In this document: positions 6,292-54,131 of the stretch, piece by piece
Layout of the letters: each line of letters begins with the position of its first letter
Numbering within the stretch: position 1 is the stretch's first letter
DNA from: Candidatus Woesearchaeota archaeon
GTDB taxonomy: Archaea; Nanobdellota; Nanobdellia; Woesearchaeales; JACJVW01
DNA length: 64,000 bases
NCBI GenBank assembly: GCA_020637435.1
Contig: JACJVW010000003.1
Location: 4,787-68,786 of the forward strand
Reading direction: 5' to 3'
The notes under the pieces: generated by a model
What the model was told of the DNA's origin: nothing
Database searches by the model: none
The model's input: the letters and a program-made list of their open reading frames with translations, nothing else
Position numbers and translations under genes: made by a program

Positions 6292-6386
6292 GGGTCCATA
6301 GCTTAGCCTGGTATAGCATTCGGCTCTTAATTGGGCTTTTCCAAGCTGAAACCGAAAGGTCGGGGGTTCGAATCCCTCTGGACCCA
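6292..6386 (+). tRNA. tRNA-Lys(CTT) with 21-nt intron (6330-6350) at position 37/38
   Basis: GGGTCCA/TGGACCC acceptor stem, TTCGG/CCGAA anticodon stem, CTT at 6326-28, GGTTCGAAT T-loop. Confidence 0.9.
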
Positions 6387-6701
6387 TACCTCTTCTTTAA
6401 GTCTATCTGTCTGAACCCCGGGGTTCGAATTGTTGTGAACGAAGTGAACAACATAGACATGAGCTTGCTCATGGCGTTCCCTCTGGACCCATACCTCTTC
6501 TTTAAGTCTATCTTTCTGAACCTTGGGGTTCGAATTGTTGTGAACGAAGTGAACAACATAGACATGAGCTTGCTCATGGCGTTCCCTCTGGACCCATATA
6601 TCTTCTTTAAGTCTATCTGTCTGAACTTTGGGGTTCGAATTGTTGTGAACGAAGTGAACAACATAGACATGAGCTTGCTCATGGCGTTCCCTCTTGGTCC
6701 A
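6387..6701 (+). repeat. 3 x 105-bp tandem repeat, each ending in the tRNA-Lys 3' end with a hairpin cassette in the T-loop
   Basis: Units 6387-6491, 6492-6596 and 6597-6701, near-identical with a few substitutions. Confidence 0.95.
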
Positions 6702-22126: not shown

Positions 22127-22304
22127 CTGCATACGTGCCAGCGTCGCATAATCTGGAGAAGATGAGCAATAGCTCACCTTCGGAGAATATTGCGGTGGTC
22201 TCGAAAGATGAAAACTATGGTTTCGTCACGAAACAACCACTGTCCTTGTGACTTCCCGGTTCAAAAACCTACATAGGCTGAAAGTCCGGGCGCTGGCGTA
22301 GCAG
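22127..22304 (+). ncRNA. candidate structured non-coding RNA of unknown family
   Basis: 14-bp closing helix (22127-43 with 22291-304), several internal stems, TATA-like TTTAATAA at 22102-09, terminator downstream. Confidence 0.55.
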
Positions 22305-31987: not shown

Positions 31988-32117
31988 GCGAGGGTGGCAG
32001 AGCCTGGTCAAATGCGCAGGACTTAAGCGACCTATGATGGAGACAACCAAGCGCGTGCTTGGGTCTAAGTTATCCTGTCCCTTAGTGGGTTCGAGGGTTC
32101 GAATCCCTTCCCTCGCA
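31988..32117 (+). tRNA. tRNA-Leu(TAA) with 44-nt intron (32028-32071)
   Basis: GCGAGGG/CCCTCGC acceptor, CAGGA/TCCTG anticodon stem, long variable arm, perfect BHB (CTTA/TAAG central helix, GACC/GGTC). Confidence 0.95.
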
Positions 32118-32140
32118 TTATTTCTCATTATCCTTCAGTC

Positions 32141-32220
32141 GAACCCTAGGGTTCAAAGTGTTGTGAGCTGATGCGGACAACATAGACATGGATTTTTCCA
32201 TGTCGTACCCTACCCTCGCA
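32141..32220 (+). repeat. tRNA-Leu 3'-end copy with T-loop hairpin cassette
   Basis: GAACCCTAGGGTTC...TGTTG/CAACA-TAGA-CATG/CATG-TCGT-ACCCTACCCTCGCA. Confidence 0.85.
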
Positions 32221-50164: not shown

Positions 50165-50666
50165 ACGGATAGTGCTTTTTACACTCGGCTCTGAACTCTT
50201 TGGTTGTGATATTTCGCATGTGCTTGAGATTATGAAGGTCAGGCCTTATACAGCGATACCTGGCGCATCAGAGTATGTAGAGGGTGTCATCAATATTCGT
50301 GGGCAGATAGTGGCTGTAGTCAATCTAGCCAAGAAACTTGGTTTCCCCCAGACTGATGACCTTAACAGAGCAAGAGTTATCGTCTGTGATGTAGGAAAAG
50401 ACTCTATCGGATTTCAGGTGGATGCAGTCAAAGAGGTCATGACGCTTGAGACGGGTGAGATCAAGTCACCGCCTGGAGTCATCCAGAAAAAAATAAGGTC
50501 TGAGTACCTGGAAGGTATCTATATCGACGGGGATAATCTGATAATCCTTGTGGACCTTCTTGCGCTTGTTACGGCTGAGGAACTAAATACTCTTGGCGGA
50601 ACCATGGCGCCTACGTCACCTAAGGAGATCTATGACGAGATCAATAAAGTGATGAAAGATCAGTAA
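50145..50666 (+). CDS. cheW: chemotaxis coupling protein CheW (second copy)
   Basis: FTLGSELFG, IP..S.YVEGVINIRGQI..V.NL, GFQVD.V. Confidence 0.93.
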   Translation: MQVEDSKRIVLFTLGSELFGCDISHVLEIMKVRPYTAIPGASEYVEGVINIRGQIVAVVNLAKKLGFPQTDDLNRARVIVCDVGKDSIGFQVDAVKEVMTLETGEIKSPPGVIQKKIRSEYLEGIYIDGDNLIILVDLLALVTAEELNTLGGTMAPTSPKEIYDEINKVMKDQ

Positions 50667-50743
50667 GCTCTGGTTCAAGTTCTTATTGAAGTGGCAACGC
50701 ATGTTTTGTAGACTGAGTGTCTGTTCACTTGATAAATGCACGA

Positions 50744-51180
50744 AGCCTGGTACACAGACCGAACAAGTTCGTTCTTGCCTTGCTCACTCTCTTCGCAAGG
50801 GATCGTTCGGTTGGCATTGCAATTTCTCCACTATTCTATGTTAAAACTTATAAAGAGATGAACAAGAACTTAGCTATTATGGGCTTGTAGCTCAGCCTGG
50901 TATACAGACCGAACAAGTTCGTTCTTACCTTGCTCATTCCATTCGCAAGGGATCGCTCGGTTGGCATTGCAATTTCTCCACTATTCTATGTTAAAACTTA
51001 TAAAGAGATGAACAAGAACTTAGCTATTATGGGCTTGTAGCTCAGCCTGGTATACAGACCGAACAAGTTCGTTCTTACCTTGCTCACTCTCTTCGCAAGG
51101 GATCGTTCGGTTGGCATTGCAATTTCTCCACTATTCTATGTTAAAACTTATAAAGAGATGAACAAGAACTTAGCTATTAT
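50744..51180 (+). repeat. about 3 x 150-bp tandem repeat of promoter plus tRNA-Ala 5' half with a D-loop hairpin insert
   Basis: GGGCTTGTAG recurs at 50881, 51031 and 51181; the first unit is truncated at 50744. Confidence 0.95.
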
Positions 51181-51276
51181 GGGCTTGTAGCTCAGCCTGG
51201 TAGATCGCTCGGTTGGCACAATCATCATCTGATTCCAAAGATCGAGAGGCCGCGGGTTCAAATCCCGCCAAGTCCA
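51181..51276 (+). tRNA. tRNA-Ala(GGC) with 22-nt intron (51219-51240)
   Basis: G3:U70 pair, GGC at 51215-17, perfect BHB (TTGG/CCAA, AATC/GATT); C11/T24 mismatch in the D-stem. Confidence 0.92.
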
Positions 51277-51285
51277 TATTTTTTC

Positions 51286-51450
51286 TTACTTTAATTTGCT
51301 TATGATGCCTTTGACGAATTCTTCGTATCTTACTTCGGCTGCAAGCATGGCAACATCCGGACTAGGAATGCCTTCTACATGGTCGATATGTTTGAGATGC
51401 TCAGTTAACAGTTTTCTGATGAGTTCCTTTTCGTTTGCTGTTAGCGTCAT
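51286..51450 (-). CDS. 54-aa hypothetical protein
   Basis: MTLTANEKELIRKLL...; GGTGA SD; manual translation. Confidence 0.6.
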   Translation of the reverse strand: MTLTANEKELIRKLLTEHLKHIDHVEGIPSPDVAMLAAEVRYEEFVKGIISKLK

Positions 51451-51485
51451 ATGTATCACCCATAGTGCATAAAGATTTGATAGTA

Positions 51486-52223
51486 TTATAATCTTGTGGG
51501 TGTGAGTATGTAGCCTTTGTCAAGGTCGCCGAAGATAGTGCATTTTTTTGGGTTTTTCCAGTAGAAGAAGACGATGTAGGCGCACAACAAAGCATCGATT
51601 TGGTCTTCATAGTCTTTTAATGCCCTGCCCCTCATCCCTATAACTTTTTGCTTGAGAAAATCACACGGAAGCAGTTTGTAGAAGGCATTTTGATATTCTT
51701 TAAAGGCCTGCCACCTGCTTTCATAGGTTCGGCCGGGTTTGTTCTTATAGGGGATTATCTTATCCCTTCTAAAGAGTGTAATGGTGGCGGGATGAGGGAA
51801 TACTTCGTAGAATCTTTTACCTGACTCTTTTGGTTTATTCAGGAAGCTTTGGGTGAACTTCCTCTGTTCCAGGGCAATGCTGATGTCTTCACCTCTAATT
51901 GACCCAGTCCAGCTTGAGAGGCGCTTTCTGTTGGCAGGGTGTGCGCCCGCATGGTGTTTTCTGAATTCTTTGTTGAGGAGCTGTTCTCCCGGGCGGGAAC
52001 CATCTTCGTTGGGTACGATGAGAGGCGCATCGATACCAATAATCGTAGGACTCTTTTGTATGATGCTAAATATGGTCTTAAGGATATTTGCATCGGAATC
52101 ATGGATAGAGATATGGACTATCTGCAAATGCTCATTAATAATTGCGACACCAGATGGGTTCCTGTTGGACCAGGCAAGATCAAGACCTACGAAAAACATA
52201 TACTTAATCCGAATAGCCTTCAT
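51486..52223 (-). CDS. DUF429-family predicted RNase H-like nuclease
   Basis: VGLDLAWS...SGVA, IGIDAPL, EVFPHP, DQIDALLCA. Confidence 0.88.
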   Translation of the reverse strand: MKAIRIKYMFFVGLDLAWSNRNPSGVAIINEHLQIVHISIHDSDANILKTIFSIIQKSPTIIGIDAPLIVPNEDGSRPGEQLLNKEFRKHHAGAHPANRKRLSSWTGSIRGEDISIALEQRKFTQSFLNKPKESGKRFYEVFPHPATITLFRRDKIIPYKNKPGRTYESRWQAFKEYQNAFYKLLPCDFLKQKVIGMRGRALKDYEDQIDALLCAYIVFFYWKNPKKCTIFGDLDKGYILTPTRL

Positions 52224-52309
52224 ATTTATGAATTGTGTGCTGTTGTTTTAAGCCTTAAAACCGAAGTACTATGACAGATTTAATAGTATGATCACAATCT
52301 AAAGGTCAC

Positions 52310-52762
52310 ATGTATGATATTACAGATATACCGGACCTTGGATCTCTTTCGATAGCGTATAAGGGTGCCCCAAATTCTTATCTATTGGCTTATGGCACCG
52401 CCGTATTGATACGTGAAAGTGGATATTCATTAGATGATGCAGCTAAGCTTGTCAGTACATTTCGTGATATGGAGTATGAGCCAAGACAGGTGGCAAGGGG
52501 AGTTGAGATCCTTCTAGGCGAGGATAGGGGTCGAAGCATCGGTGATATCATCGACGTTACGGAGCGTGTAAAGAAATACACTACCTGGTCTTGCAGCCCC
52601 TCGAATATCGCATATGCTGTTGTTGATGCCCTAAAGACGGGAGAGTCTACAGAGCGAATATTACGTGCTATCGACTGCAGAGGGCAGCATACCTCGCGGA
52701 TGCAAAACCTATTCGGTCGTGGCGCAAATGGGGTTGTAAAATACCTCGGTGATTGCCTCTGA
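52310..52762 (+). CDS. hypothetical protein
   Basis: 150-aa ORF. Confidence 0.55.
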   Translation: MYDITDIPDLGSLSIAYKGAPNSYLLAYGTAVLIRESGYSLDDAAKLVSTFRDMEYEPRQVARGVEILLGEDRGRSIGDIIDVTERVKKYTTWSCSPSNIAYAVVDALKTGESTERILRAIDCRGQHTSRMQNLFGRGANGVVKYLGDCL

Positions 52763-52811
52763 TTGAAAAATCTTTTAAATGCATGATTTCTCGCTTTAGA
52801 TTATTGACTTT

Positions 52812-52924
52812 GGGGCTGTAGTGTAGCTTGGACGTAGTAATGCTGCGTATCGCAGCATTGCTAGGGAGCAATATCACTGGCGGTTCGGGGCCGCCCAACC
52901 GGAGTTCGAATCTTCGCAGTCCCA
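52812..52924 (+). tRNA. tRNA-Pro(CGG) with 40-nt D-loop intron (52832-52871)
   Basis: GGGGCTG/CAGTCCC acceptor, GGCGG/CCGCC anticodon stem, CGG at 52886-88; GCTT/GAGC central helix with 3-nt bulges. Confidence 0.88.
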
Positions 52925-53090
52925 TACAAAACCATTTAATTTAAAAATTAGAAAAAGCAAAGGGTCGTAGTAAGTAGCACCACAGCATCTAGATAACGAT
53001 GCTTAGTTTGTTTGCACAAACTGTAAGCTCAGTAGACAAGCTAGTGGGTTTCTTCGCTAGCGCTCATCAAGCCCAGGAAAATCAGATATT

Positions 53091-53243
53091 GGGGCCGTAG
53101 TGTAGCCTGGAGTTGATCACAGCTGTGGTCATCGGGTACCTATCACTGGAGCTCGGGGTTCGTAGCGCAAATGCGCTGTGCTTCCAAGAAAGCACATAAC
53201 GTACGGACAGCTTCTAACCGGAGTTCGAATCTCCGCGGTCCCA
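53091..53243 (+). tRNA. tRNA-Pro(GGG) with D-loop intron (53111-53139) and 50-nt anticodon-loop insertion (53159-53208)
   Basis: GGGGCCG/CGGTCCC acceptor, GGAGC/GCTTC anticodon stem, GGG at 53155-57; position 33 is C. Confidence 0.75.
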
Positions 53244-53482
53244 TATTTCTTCCTCTGGAATCAGCAATAGAACTCCAGAGTTCGAATTGTTGAGGTTTCC
53301 TCAACATAGACACGGTTTTTCCGTGGCGTACTCCCGCGGTCCCATATTTTTTCCTCTGGAATCAGCAATAGAACTCCAGAGTTCGAATTGTTGAGGTTTC
53401 CTCAACATACCTTGTGTTAACAAGGTTCGAGACTTCAGTTGAAGAAGACATGGTTTCTCCGTGGCGTACTCCCGCGGTCCCA
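53244..53482 (+). repeat. two tRNA-Pro 3'-end copies with T-loop hairpin cassettes (101 and 138 bp)
   Basis: Units 53244-53344 and 53345-53482; the second carries extra hairpins. Confidence 0.92.
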
Positions 53483-53534
53483 TATTCTTTTCTATTATAT
53501 AAGTGCAAAAGAACTGAACAAAAAGTAAATGAAA

Positions 53535-54131
53535 TTATTTTCTTAAATCCTTATCAAATGAAAGAATCAGATCACCGACATGATAAGCTTCTATGGCGCT
53601 ACGGCTACTATCTTGTTTAACACCACCTAGGTGATACTCTTTTTCTCCGTCTAAAGGATATTTTTCCACCAAGTCTGTTCGACCATCCAATTTACCAAAT
53701 GGATGACCATCATGTACAAACCATTCGATGCCATCTCTCTTTGCTTTAACAGTATGTTGGTCCTTTGTAGAAGAACTATTGAGAATCTTAATTTCAATTG
53801 GCTTTCGCGGATTGATCTCCAAATCGTAAGCAAGTAGCTCTTGTGCAATAGCATAAGCCTCTTTAGTTGCGGGGTTGCTGTCTTCTTTAACACCCCCACG
53901 ATAGGGGAACCATGTATTCTCATCTGGATGTCTATCGACTCTGTCGACTTTTCCATCGTAAGGACCGAAAGGATAGCCATCGTGTGCTCTCCAGTCTTCA
54001 CCATCTCGGGTCGCGATAACATAATGCATTGCATCGTTATTTGTGCTGCCGCTTATCTTGATCTCTGGTGCTTCAGAAGCATTGACTGAAGCTGCTAGGA
54101 TAATTCCTGTGAGTGTTATCATCGGTTTCAT
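53535..54131 (-). CDS. secreted protein with two tandem copies of an unknown domain of about 85 aa
   Basis: Signal peptide; EIKI...A.RDG.W..HDG.PFG..DG..D.V...P......GGVK.DS...EAY occurs twice. Confidence 0.75.
   Translation of the reverse strand: MKPMITLTGIILAASVNASEAPEIKISGSTNNDAMHYVIATRDGEDWRAHDGYPFGPYDGKVDRVDRHPDENTWFPYRGGVKEDSNPATKEAYAIAQELLAYDLEINPRKPIEIKILNSSSTKDQHTVKAKRDGIEWFVHDGHPFGKLDGRTDLVEKYPLDGEKEYHLGGVKQDSSRSAIEAYHVGDLILSFDKDLRK

What the first reader, a model, noticed from the sequence alone, without database searches (positions are those of the whole stretch)
53244..53482. Two tRNA-Pro 3'-end copies showing modular growth of the cassette
Seen: unit 1 has the basic two-hairpin cassette. 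Unit 2 is the same but gains about 37 nt after CAACA-TA (CCTTG-TGTTAA-CAAGG, TTCGA, CTTCA-GT-TGAAG). The CCTTG/CAAGG module also occurs in the Ala repeats 2.5 kb away. Inference: hairpin modules are exchanged or added as units.
Basis: partly seen in the sequence, partly recalled or inferred. Interest (0 to 1): 0.75.

Follow-up and report, generated by a model that had tools for sequence, protein, structure and literature searches.

The report
Hairpin mini-cassettes behind tRNA genes
Behind a proline tRNA gene of a tiny DPANN archaeon lie two gene-free, hairpin-rich DNA cassettes, each ending in a copy of the tRNA's last 14 bases; about half of this genome's tRNA genes carry similar cassettes, which look like miniature insertion units aimed at the tRNA T-loop and seem not to have been described before.

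Summary
Window 53244-53344 (101 nt) and 53345-53482 (138 nt) are two tandem units directly after an intron-rich tRNA-Pro(GGG) gene (53091-53243). Each unit ends in a copy of the tRNA's T-stem 3' strand, acceptor 3' strand and discriminator. Unit 2 differs by one clean 37-nt two-hairpin block (53410-53446).

The CCTTG/CAAGG link to the Ala repeats rests on a 5-bp stem that is common in this genome. The real homologue of the block sits in a cassette behind a tRNA-Arg(CCU) gene on another contig, about 86% identical, so the long form is old and not a fresh gain.

The Pro units belong to a genome-wide system. Ten of 22 recognisable tRNA genes have downstream 3'-end copies (0.3 expected by chance), all starting at T-loop position 60/61. 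Two more have mirror-image 5' arrays. Seven loci share the module TAGA-CAYG..CRTG-KCGT, which has compensatory stem changes and occurs nowhere else. There is no bulge-helix-bulge motif, no ORF and no Rfam hit.

A genuine 25.7-kb integrase element in the same genome recombines at the same tRNA sublocation. Best reading (about 45%): gene-less, fold-defined insertion cassettes of the att-site type that pile up into arrays. The mechanism remains unproven.

The parts
52812..52924 (+). tRNA-Pro(CGG) gene with a roughly 40-nt D-loop intron. ARAGORN and Rfam both miss it.
   Evidence: Read by hand. Acceptor and T-arm pairing were found by the script. No hit.
53091..53243 (+). tRNA-Pro(GGG) gene with a D-loop intron and an anticodon-loop intron. 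This is the gene whose 3' end is copied in the two units.
   Evidence: The orthologue in the sister genus has the same anticodon-loop layout.
53244..53344 (+). Cassette unit 1 (101 nt, short form): T-rich trailer and spacer, hairpin 1, T-loop copy, hairpin 2, TAGA, hairpin 3, GCGTA, tRNA 3'-end copy.
53270..53287 (+). Unit 1 hairpin 1: palindrome GAACTC-CA-GAGTTC, whose right arm plus GAAT copies the tRNA's T-stem 5' strand and T-loop (AGAGTTCGAAT).
   Evidence: Helix 1 is 100% paired across 10 units.
53288..53306 (+). Unit 1 hairpin 2, TGTTGAGG-TTT-CCTCAACA. The base TGTTG/CAACA is invariant in the family.
53307..53330 (+). Unit 1 module TAGA-CACGG-TTTTT-CCGTG-GCGT-A (hairpin 3 with its conserved flanks).
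   Evidence: the module occurs only in tRNA-flank units; three stem pairs show compensatory changes.
53331..53344 (+). Unit 1 copy of the tRNA 3' end, CTCCCGCGGTCCCA (T-stem 3' strand with one extra C, acceptor 3' strand, discriminator A).
53345..53482 (+). Cassette unit 2 (138 nt, long form). It has the same parts as unit 1 plus the 37-nt block. Hairpin 3 is 53449-53463 and the tRNA 3'-end copy is 53469-53482.
53410..53446 (+). The 37-nt block: hairpin CCTTG-TGTTAA-CAAGG, then TTCGAGA, then hairpin CTTCA-GT-TGAAG, then AA. It is inserted within the TAGA linker.
   Evidence: A homologous block lies at C1:403115-403216.
6387..6701 (+). Three 105-nt cassettes of the same family behind tRNA-Lys(CUU) (6292-6386). 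The last 3'-end copy is decayed.
32118..32220 (+). One cassette of the same family behind tRNA-Leu(UAA) (31988-32117).
50744..51180 (+). Mirror-image 5' array before tRNA-Ala(GGC) (51181-51276): about three 150-nt units. Each unit holds a promoter, tRNA positions 1-21, a 48-nt two-hairpin insert in the D-loop, and tRNA positions 22-37.

Best explanation
The two units are members of a lineage-specific family of miniature, gene-free, hairpin-defined cassettes that sit at the ends of tRNA genes in this Woesearchaeota-like archaeon.

Proposed mechanism: each cassette entered, or was copied in, by recombination at the junction between the T-loop and the T-stem 3' strand (position 60/61) of a tRNA gene. 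As with integrative elements, the incoming DNA supplies a working T-stem 3' strand, acceptor 3' strand and trailer. The older 3' end is pushed downstream. That displaced end is the 'tRNA 3'-end copy' that closes every unit.

Arrays then grow or shrink in two ways: repeated insertion into the regenerated site, or unequal crossing-over between the 14-60-nt direct repeats. Neighbouring units are partly homogenised by gene conversion.

The conserved hairpins (TGTTG..CAACA and TAGA-CAYG..CRTG-KCGT) are probably recognition elements read in folded, single-stranded form by a factor acting in trans. The 37-nt block is an optional sub-module of the Pro/Arg branch of the family.

Shown here: the anatomy, the fixed 60/61 boundary, the family relationship across loci, the stem covariation, the absence of ORFs and of splice motifs, the presence of an integrase element using the same tRNA sublocation, and the unit-number differences between sister species.

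Inferred, not shown: that insertion is enzymatic and site-specific, which enzyme does it, and that the hairpins act as single-stranded DNA and not as RNA.
For: (1) Ten of 22 tRNA genes carry downstream copies of their own 3' end, against 0.3 expected. In all ten the identity to the tRNA starts at position 59-61, whereas it extends a variable 0-44 nt into the trailer. A fixed left edge with a variable right edge is what a site-specific crossover followed by selection for a working tRNA predicts.

(2) The same genome holds a 25.7-kb element (C1:66516-92230). It is bounded by a 20-nt repeat of tRNA-Thr(UGU) that also starts in the T-loop (AAT|CCCTCC...). A tyrosine integrase gene (C1:90897-92165) lies next to that tRNA.

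(3) Cassettes at different tRNAs are homologous from spacer to hairpin 3. The module TAGA-CAYG..CRTG-KCGT occurs 13 times and only in tRNA-flank units. It is absent from 300 other genomes of the order apart from one likely chance hit. Local duplication alone cannot explain this.

(4) Hairpin 3 has three base pairs with compensatory double changes and loops of 4-7 nt. All changes in hairpin 1 keep pairing, partly through G-U/G-T wobble on the tRNA-sense strand. Overall 96.7% of cells are paired, against 27-48% when partners are slid by 1-3 columns.

(5) The Pro and Arg(CCU) cassettes share derived features: the block, the form of hairpin 2 and an extra C in the T-stem copy. Each nevertheless ends in its own tRNA's acceptor strand. 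The last 9-10 nt are therefore local and the rest travels.

(6) In the sister genus, the orthologous spacer between tRNA-Ala and tRNA-Pro holds 0, 1 and at least 2 units in three species (1, 193 and 375 nt).

(7) The last copies of arrays are the most decayed (Lys, Ser and Ile-like loci), as expected for displaced, unselected 3' ends.
Against: No recombinase gene lies within or next to any cassette.

The genuine 25.7-kb element has none of the cassette hairpins at its ends, so its integrase is not shown to act on cassettes.

Units of 64-150 bp are very small for double-stranded circular intermediates.

In the TGTTG family the T-arm copy is split by the hairpins. It is also preceded by a palindrome complementary to the T-stem 5' strand. 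The simple att-site model does not predict this feature.

The mirror-image 5' arrays (Ala and Thr-UGU) require a second target site or a different process.

No excised form, empty-site strain or extrachromosomal copy was found. Viral, genome and metagenome scans gave nothing relevant.

The wobble-tolerant stems on the sense strand fit an RNA role equally well.
Confidence: 0.45

Rival explanations
1. The units are structured RNA parts of the tRNA transcription unit. On this reading they are transcribed by read-through. The conserved hairpins bind a processing, termination or chaperone factor. The single-stranded tRNA 3'-end copy acts as a spare or competing partner for the tRNA's 5' acceptor strand, serving for example as a processing signal, a decoy or quality control.
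For: All stem changes that are not fully compensatory give G-U pairs on the tRNA-sense strand: four cells, and none of the opposite A-C type. Loop lengths vary while the stems are kept. The trailers of the Pro and Lys tRNAs have only short T runs, and a T5-T6 run comes only after later units, so read-through is plausible. A second module (stem-CTTGAGC-loop-GCGAAA-stem) with covarying outer stems is shared between this genome and the sister genus.
Against: No Rfam family matches. The Ser and Arg loci have T7 runs directly after the tRNA, which should stop transcription before the units. Both strands fold equally well. Unit number varies from 0 to at least 2 at one orthologous locus, and last units decay, which is unlike a required RNA part. 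The sequence family is confined to one genus.
Confidence: 0.2
2. The units are decayed relics of full-size integrated viruses or plasmids. These elements integrated into the tRNA genes and lost everything but a few dozen bases next to attR. Local tandem duplication followed.
For: The direct-repeat geometry is the same as for the 25.7-kb element in this genome. It is also the same as for published tRNA-fragment scars, such as the 44-bp repeats of PYG1 in Pyrococcus yayanosii (PMC9897764) and the tRNA-Thr fragment in Caldiarchaeum (PMC3293823).
Against: Random deletion would not leave units of uniform architecture and size (64-150 nt) that are homologous end to end at seven different tRNAs. It would also leave some trace of coding sequence, and there is none. 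Hairpin covariation indicates that selection is acting on the units.
Confidence: 0.15
3. The units are plain local tandem duplications of the tRNA 3' end plus flank. They would arise by replication slippage or template switching at the palindromic T-arm, with no mobile element and no function.
For: The T-arm DNA (GGGGTTCGAA-CCCC) is a near-perfect palindrome. Hairpin 1 looks like a 'perfected' quasi-palindrome of it. Units within one array are 92-100% identical.
Against: It does not explain the homologous hairpin modules at unlinked tRNA loci. It does not explain the identical 60/61 boundary at all ten loci. It does not explain why the Pro-type cassette sits behind a tRNA-Arg gene on another contig with that tRNA's own acceptor end.
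Confidence: 0.1
4. The units are alternative or spare 3' exons: tRNA 3' pieces with a T-loop intron, or split-tRNA halves, that are spliced to the tRNA body by the archaeal splicing endonuclease.
For: The hairpins sit exactly where genuine T-loop introns sit in two working tRNAs of this genome (window 22137-22298 and C1:138000-138300). The Ala 5' units end exactly at position 37, the canonical splice site.
Against: A bulge-helix-bulge search recovers the canonical Ala and Leu introns but finds nothing spanning the cassette in the Pro or Lys units. It gives only weak, non-conserved candidates in the two Leu units. Genuine T-loop introns end in TGAA-AG|T, whereas cassettes end in KCGT. The T-stem copies of the Pro, Arg and Ser units carry an extra base. 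No complementary partner for the Ala 5' units exists in the assembly.
Confidence: 0.04
5. The array is an assembly artefact: a chimera or a mis-resolved repeat.
For: The genome is a metagenome-assembled genome (75% complete, 5 contigs). Tandem repeats are hard to assemble.
Against: Two independent public runs give contigs 100% identical to both flanks, including tRNA to unit left part, and unit left part to 37-nt block to last copy to downstream gene. They break only inside the shared 76-nt repeat. The units differ by substitutions. The same architecture recurs at 12 loci and in the sister genus.
Confidence: 0.02

Closest known systems
tRNA-gene fragments (attL/attR direct repeats) left by tyrosine-integrase integrative elements in archaea. 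Examples: PYG1 in Pyrococcus yayanosii (PMC9897764); the tRNA-Thr fragment model in Caldiarchaeum subterraneum (PMC3293823); SSV- and pNOB8-type integration (own knowledge).
   Same: A direct repeat of the tRNA 3' part begins in the T-loop region. The working gene is proximal and the displaced, decaying copy is distal. A genuine example with an integrase exists in this very genome at the same sublocation.
   Different: The bounded segment is only 64-150 nt and holds no gene. It has a conserved multi-hairpin architecture shared between different tRNAs. It forms tandem arrays, affects about half of all tRNA genes, and has mirror-image versions at tRNA 5' ends.
CIMEs (cis-mobilisable elements: att sites without recombination genes, which build arrays by accretion with streptococcal ICEs) and MITE-like non-autonomous elements (own knowledge).
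   Same: The units are gene-less and bounded by att-type repeats. They could be moved in trans and could accumulate in tandem at one tRNA site.
   Different: CIMEs are kilobases long and bacterial. No partner autonomous element carrying the same ends was found here.
Integron attC sites and CALIN arrays, including archaeal integrons (Ghaly et al. 2022, own knowledge).
   Same: Both are arrays of short sites defined by a fold and not by a sequence. Both show stem covariation, and recognition as single-stranded hairpins is plausible.
   Different: There is no R/L box pattern (RYYYAAC...GTTRRRY in that order) and there are no cassette ORFs. The units are tied to tRNA ends and carry tRNA copies. 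No IntI-type integrase was identified.
Non-canonical (T-loop, D-loop) bulge-helix-bulge introns of archaeal tRNAs and their proposed transposition (Thermoproteales; PMC4090602, PMC4033280).
   Same: The hairpins occupy the position in the T-loop (about 59-61) where genuine introns of this genome sit. Both have a two-hairpin modular style. Related sequences occur in different tRNAs.
   Different: The cassettes have no BHB motif. They sit only in displaced, non-functional 3' copies, never in the working gene.
IS200/IS605-derived palindrome elements (PATEs) and REP/BIME repeats (own knowledge).
   Same: Both are short, gene-free, hairpin-bearing, strand-specific repeats in intergenic DNA. Both have conserved short motifs at hairpin feet.
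   Different: No Y1 transposase was detected in the assembly. The hairpins are shorter. The units are tied to tRNA ends and end in a copy of the target.

Membership tests
att-site repeats of tRNA-integrating elements (tyrosine integrase) | A direct repeat identical to the 3' part of a tRNA gene flanks the inserted DNA. | tested here: met
   A 14-nt copy (with one extra C) lies at 53331-53344 and again at 53469-53482. The same holds at nine other tRNAs. The chance expectation is 0.3 loci.
att-site repeats of tRNA-integrating elements (tyrosine integrase) | The repeat boundary falls at a fixed tRNA sublocation (anticodon loop, T-loop or 3' end). | tested here: met
   All ten 3' copies start at position 59-61. 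The 25.7-kb element's repeat starts at AAT|CCCTCC.
att-site repeats of tRNA-integrating elements (tyrosine integrase) | The inserted segment encodes, or once encoded, an integrase and cargo genes. | tested here: not met
   The units are 101 and 138 nt (64-150 nt across the genome) and have no ORF. The three tyrosine recombinase genes of the assembly lie elsewhere.
att-site repeats of tRNA-integrating elements (tyrosine integrase) | Presence/absence polymorphism (empty and filled sites) in related genomes. | tested here: inconclusive
   In the sister genus the Ala-Pro spacer holds 0, 1 and at least 2 units. However, the filled site also has 63 extra nt. No strain of this species with an empty Pro site was available.
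Archaeal BHB tRNA intron | A bulge-helix-bulge (3-4-3) motif, or a relaxed form of it, lies at both exon-intron junctions. | tested here: not met
   My search finds the canonical Ala and Leu introns but nothing spanning the cassette in the Pro or Lys units. Cassettes end in KCGT, whereas genuine T-loop introns end in TGAA-AG|T.
Archaeal BHB tRNA intron | It lies inside a gene that yields a complete tRNA after removal. | tested here: not met
   The units lack acceptor 5' strand, D arm and anticodon arm. The T-stem copy has an extra base.
Split / trans-spliced tRNA halves | A partner half exists elsewhere, with a leader or trailer complementary to this half. | tested here: not met
   There is no complement of the Ala-unit trailer and no second Ala 3' half in the assembly. 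The assembly is only 75% complete.
IS200/IS605-type PATE / REP elements | A cognate Y1 (HUH) transposase or RAYT is present in the genome. | tested here: not met
   PF01797 gave no hit in the assembly. The genome is 75% complete, so absence is not proven.
Integron attC / CALIN | R''-L''...L'-R' boxes (RYYYAAC ... GTTRRRY) and an IntI integrase. | tested here: not met
   By inspection, hairpin 2 reads TGTTG...CAACA, which is the opposite order, and its bases do not fit RYYYAAC/GTTRRRY. No IntI-specific test was run.
Any described RNA family (Rfam 15) | A covariance-model match. | tested here: not met
   Only tRNA hits appear at gathering threshold. In 50600-53600 nothing relevant appears even at E <= 5.

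The most novel reading that the evidence does not exclude
DPANN archaea would harbour an undescribed class of miniature, gene-less insertion cassettes that are defined by fold and not by sequence. On this reading the cassettes target the T-loop/T-stem junction of tRNA genes, with a mirror site in the D-loop or 5' end. They are recognised as single-stranded hairpins by a recombinase acting in trans, much as attC sites are. Each brings a replacement tRNA end and they build up into arrays. Insertions that happen to form a bulge-helix-bulge would survive inside working genes. If so, these cassettes would be the long-sought source of non-canonical tRNA introns and of fragmented tRNA genes in archaea.
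Probability: 0.25. Interest if true: 0.85.

Novelty: new variant of a known kind. Interest (0 to 1): 0.62.

Why it matters
How archaeal tRNA genes acquire introns at odd positions, and how they become split or permuted, is an old open question. The favoured idea is that mobile elements integrating into tRNA genes are responsible, but it rests on very few observed intermediates.

This genome offers many intermediates at once. It has genuine T-loop and D-loop introns. It has an active-looking integrase element at a T-loop site. And about half of its tRNA genes carry small hairpin cassettes at exactly the same site, with displaced tRNA ends.

If the cassettes are mobile, they form a compact and tractable system for testing intron gain and tRNA-gene fragmentation. 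They would also be a new kind of non-autonomous element in very small genomes.

There is a practical point too. Standard tRNA finders miss a large share of this genome's tRNA genes, and the displaced fragments can be mis-called.

Tried and rejected
(1) Intron reading. A strict and a slightly relaxed bulge-helix-bulge scan found the canonical Ala and Leu introns but no conserved motif around the cassette.

(2) Split-tRNA reading. No partner half or complementary leader exists for the Ala 5' units.

(3) Known RNA families. Rfam gave nothing at gathering threshold or at E <= 5.

(4) Searches for the cassette elsewhere.
- The full pattern was absent from 60 relatives, from IMG/VR viral contigs and from GTDB genome contigs.
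- Four metagenome hits were chance matches inside a high-GC coding sequence that I read as a catalase gene, not confirmed with a tool.
- The hairpin-3 module alone was absent from 300 genomes of the order, apart from one likely chance hit.

(5) IS200/IS605 link. No Y1 transposase was found.

(6) CCTTG/CAAGG as a shared module with the Ala repeats. Not significant.

(7) The 37-nt block as an internal duplicate of 'hairpin 1-TTCGAAT-hairpin 2'. The layout is the same (hairpin, TTCGAxx, hairpin, xA), but only TTCGA is shared, so this is not demonstrable.

(8) A target-site-duplication (transposase or casposase-like) reading. The duplicated length varies from about 9 to about 60 nt between loci, unlike a fixed staggered cut.

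(10) Literature searches. These found papers on tRNA fragments from integrated elements, but none describing gene-free hairpin cassette arrays at tRNA ends.
Full report
**What is at the coordinates**

The window comes from contig C3 of a 1.13-Mb, 5-contig, about 75% complete archaeal genome with 44-46% GC. Earlier notes of this scan place it in Woesearchaeota (DPANN); I did not check this myself.

Two proline tRNA genes lie just upstream of the finding. They are tRNA-Pro(CGG) at 52812-52924 and tRNA-Pro(GGG) at 53091-53243. Both carry D-loop introns, and the second also has an anticodon-loop intron. ARAGORN and Rfam miss both.

Two tandem units start directly after base 53243, at 53244-53344 (101 nt) and 53345-53482 (138 nt). 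Each unit reads, in order:
- a T-rich trailer and spacer;
- hairpin 1, the palindrome GAACTC-CA-GAGTTC. Its right arm plus GAAT copies the tRNA's T-stem 5' strand and T-loop. In Pro a longer stem, CTCTGGA..TCCAGAG, is also possible;
- hairpin 2, TGTTGAGG-TTT-CCTCAACA;
- the linker TAGA;
- hairpin 3, CAYGG-loop-CCGTG;
- GCGT-A;
- CTCCCGCGGTCCCA. This is the tRNA's T-stem 3' strand (with one extra C), acceptor 3' strand and discriminator.

The left 76 nt of the two units are 99% identical and the right 48 nt are 92% identical. The only length difference is a 37-nt block at 53410-53446, inserted within TAGA. The block folds into two small hairpins around TTCGAGA. Both units fold far better than shuffled controls (z about -3.2).

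**Is it an assembly artefact?**

Contigs from two independent public runs are 100% identical to the window. One set runs from the upstream genes through tRNA-Pro into the left part of unit 1. The other runs from the left part of unit 2 through the 37-nt block, the last 3'-end copy and the downstream gene. They stop at 53279 and 53380, the same point inside the shared 76-nt repeat. That is what a real repeat with two different continuations produces.

**The module-sharing claim**

The CCTTG..CAAGG hairpin of the block and the CCTTGC..GCAAGG hairpin of the Ala repeats share only the stem. The loops and flanks differ, and BLAST sees no similarity. Hairpins with this 5-bp stem occur 86 times in the genome, against a mean of 45 for all 5-mers (87th percentile). 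This link is not significant.

The block does have a true homologue. It lies in the single cassette behind a tRNA at C1:403245-403360, which I read as Arg(CCU). It sits at the same place (CAACATA|block|GACA). That cassette is 85% identical to Pro unit 2 over 106 nt, and 22 of the first 24 block bases match.

The Pro and Arg cassettes also share the form of hairpin 2 and the extra C in the T-stem copy, yet each ends in its own tRNA's acceptor strand. The long form is therefore old. The short junction CAACATAGACA is the norm at the four other loci of the family. One precise gain or loss of the block occurred, but the direction is open. The uneven identity of the two halves of the Pro units suggests gene conversion or a crossover at the block's position.

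**The wider system**

The Pro units are one instance of something that affects about half the tRNA genes of this genome.

I located 22 tRNA genes with a T-arm/acceptor search combined with ARAGORN and Rfam. Ten of them have one to four copies of their own last 13-18 nt within 50-300 nt downstream:
- Trp;
- a Leu-like gene at C1:619758 (three units);
- Arg(CCU);
- an Ile-like gene at C1:316835 (two units);
- Thr(GGU);
- Met;
- Ser at C2:64821 (four units);
- Lys (three units, window 6387-6701);
- Leu(UAA) (one unit, window 32118-32220);
- Pro(GGG).

Two more, Ala(GGC) at window 50744-51180 and Thr(UGU), have mirror-image arrays of 5' stubs upstream. Shuffled probes predict 0.3 such loci, reverse-complement probes gave none, and wrong-side probes hit only the paralogous Pro pair.

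In every 3' case the identity to the tRNA begins at T-loop/T-stem position 59-61. It runs on for a variable 0-44 nt into the trailer. The last copy of an array is the most decayed.

**Cassette families**

Five loci (Lys, Leu-UAA, the Leu-like gene, Pro and Arg) share the full grammar. This is a palindrome containing the cognate T-stem 5' strand, then TTCRAAN, TGTTG..CAACA, TAGA, CAYG..CRTG, KCGT, W and the cognate 3' end. The Ser and Thr(GGU) units share only the TAGA-CAYG..CRTG part.

That module occurs 13 times in the genome, always in such units. It is absent from 300 other genomes of the order apart from one likely chance hit. The full pattern is absent from viral, genome and metagenome collections apart from four chance matches.

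On an alignment of ten units, the three hairpins pair in 96.7% of cells, against 27-48% when partners are slid. Three pairs of hairpin 3 and one pair of hairpin 1 show compensatory double changes. The remaining changes give G-U/G-T wobble on the tRNA-sense strand. Hairpin loops vary from 4 to 7 nt. This speaks for a folded single strand and against a rigid double-stranded protein site.

A second module (outer stem, CTTGAGC, short loop, GCGAAA, outer stem) has covarying outer stems. It occurs in the Met and Ile-like units here and in units behind tRNA-Ala in the sister genus; units behind tRNA-Thr there carry a related CTTGACC..GGGAAAC form. In that genus the spacer between the orthologous tRNA-Ala and tRNA-Pro genes is 1 nt, 193 nt (one unit) and 375 nt (at least two units) in three species. 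Seven of 42 tRNA loci sampled from four relatives have 3'-end copies.

**What it is not**

- It is not a tRNA gene. The units lack the 5' acceptor strand, the D arm and the anticodon arm.
- It is not a standard intron. A bulge-helix-bulge scan recovers the canonical Ala and Leu introns but finds nothing conserved around the cassette. This genome does have genuine T-loop introns in working tRNAs (window 22137-22298 and C1:138000-138300). They sit at the same loop position but end in TGAA-AG|T, which pairs with TTCA of the loop. Cassettes end in KCGT.
- It is not a split-tRNA half. No partner was found.
- It matches no Rfam family.
- No Y1 transposase is present in the assembly.

**What it most likely is**

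The same genome contains a classical integrated element. A 25.7-kb segment (C1:66516-92230) is bounded by a 20-nt repeat of the tRNA-Thr(UGU) 3' end that begins in the T-loop. A 423-residue tyrosine integrase gene lies next to that tRNA. Site-specific recombination at this tRNA sublocation therefore does happen in this organism.

The cassettes have the same repeat geometry, but they are gene-free, uniform, hairpin-defined, related across different tRNAs and arrayed. My best reading, at about 45%, has four parts:
- They are miniature non-autonomous insertion units of the att-site type.
- Each supplies a replacement tRNA 3' end and displaces the old one.
- They are moved or copied by a factor acting in trans that reads the hairpins in single-stranded form.
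- They are amplified by repeated insertion or unequal crossing-over.

The anatomy, boundary, homology, covariation and unit-number differences between species are shown. The enzymatic step and the nature of the folded strand (DNA or RNA) are inferred.

Several features remain unexplained by the simple model:
- the palindrome that pairs the T-stem 5' copy with an upstream complement;
- the splitting of the T-arm copy by the hairpins;
- the mirror-image 5' arrays;
- the very small unit size.

The main rival, at about 20%, is an RNA-level role as structured trailers of the tRNA transcript. Decayed relics of large elements (15%), plain slippage (10%), spare exons (4%) and artefact (2%) follow.

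**Relation to earlier notes of this scan**

A first-stage note on this genome described the same hairpin grammar behind the Lys, Leu and Pro tRNAs. I re-derived it independently.

Follow-up notes on other DPANN genomes and a Thermoplasmata genome describe similar features:
- gene-free hairpin cassettes closed by tRNA 3' stubs;
- 14-nt 5' stubs with promoter cassettes;
- a hairpin-plus-GCGAAA module.

I treat these as leads. In this genome I did see the 14-nt Thr(UGU) stub and the GCGAAA-type module.

**Novelty and interest**

The published literature I could search describes tRNA fragments left by kilobase-scale integrated elements (PMC9897764, PMC3293823) and non-canonical tRNA introns (PMC4090602, PMC4033280). 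It does not describe arrays of gene-free hairpin cassettes at tRNA ends.

I rate this a new variant of a known kind. It is of real interest because it puts many candidate intermediates of tRNA-gene disruption side by side in one small genome. The specific 'modular growth' claim, however, is only partly borne out.

Noticed in passing
window 22137-22298 (C3:26923-27084): A Ser-like tRNA gene carries several introns, including a genuine 19-nt T-loop intron (TTCAAA|AACCTACATAGGCTGAAAG|TCCGGG). The end of the intron, TGAA, pairs with TTCA of the loop. ARAGORN and Rfam miss the gene.
   Followed up: partly
genome contig C1:138000-138300 (minus strand), outside the window: A tRNA gene has a roughly 140-nt T-loop intron that itself contains a T-arm-like piece (GGGATGCAAATCC), so tRNA fragments are nested inside a tRNA intron.
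   Followed up: partly
genome contig C1:66516-92230, outside the window: A 25.7-kb integrated element is bounded by the 20-nt repeat AATCCCTCCAGAGGCTTATT of tRNA-Thr(UGU). A 423-residue tyrosine integrase gene (C1:90897-92165) lies next to that tRNA. The same tRNA also has two 64-nt upstream units, each with a 14-nt 5' stub.
   Followed up: partly
genome contigs C1:14154, 40200, 140873, 188884, 539611; C2:3906, 60591; C5:51585 (outside the window): A second tandem-repeat family has units of 76-135 nt in 2-4 copies. Each unit is built as GAAATGTAC, a long inverted repeat with a variable centre, then GCATTTC. One array starts right after a tRNA gene but carries no tRNA copy.
   Followed up: no
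window 50744-51276: Each 150-nt Ala unit carries its own promoter-like TTATAAAG box and tRNA positions 1-37. That is exactly the 5' exon up to the canonical splice site. It is interrupted in the D-loop by a 48-nt two-hairpin insert that the working gene lacks.
   Followed up: partly
genome contig C2:64545-64832 (minus strand), outside the window: In the four-unit Ser array, the first unit has a 10-nt segment (CAGTGCACGG) that is the reverse complement, with one mismatch, of the matching segment (CCGGGCACTG) in units 2-4. This is a small inversion next to the TAGA module.
   Followed up: no
window 51486-52223 (minus strand): A DUF429-family gene (predicted RNase H-like fold) and a 150-residue ORF with no family hit lie between the tRNA-Ala and tRNA-Pro loci. 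In the sister genus these two tRNA genes are adjacent or separated only by cassette units.
   Followed up: no
whole genome: Only about 24 tRNA genes can be recognised in a 75% complete genome, and Rfam finds 19. Many carry two or three introns at D-loop, anticodon-loop and T-loop positions, so several tRNA genes are probably still hidden.
   Followed up: partly
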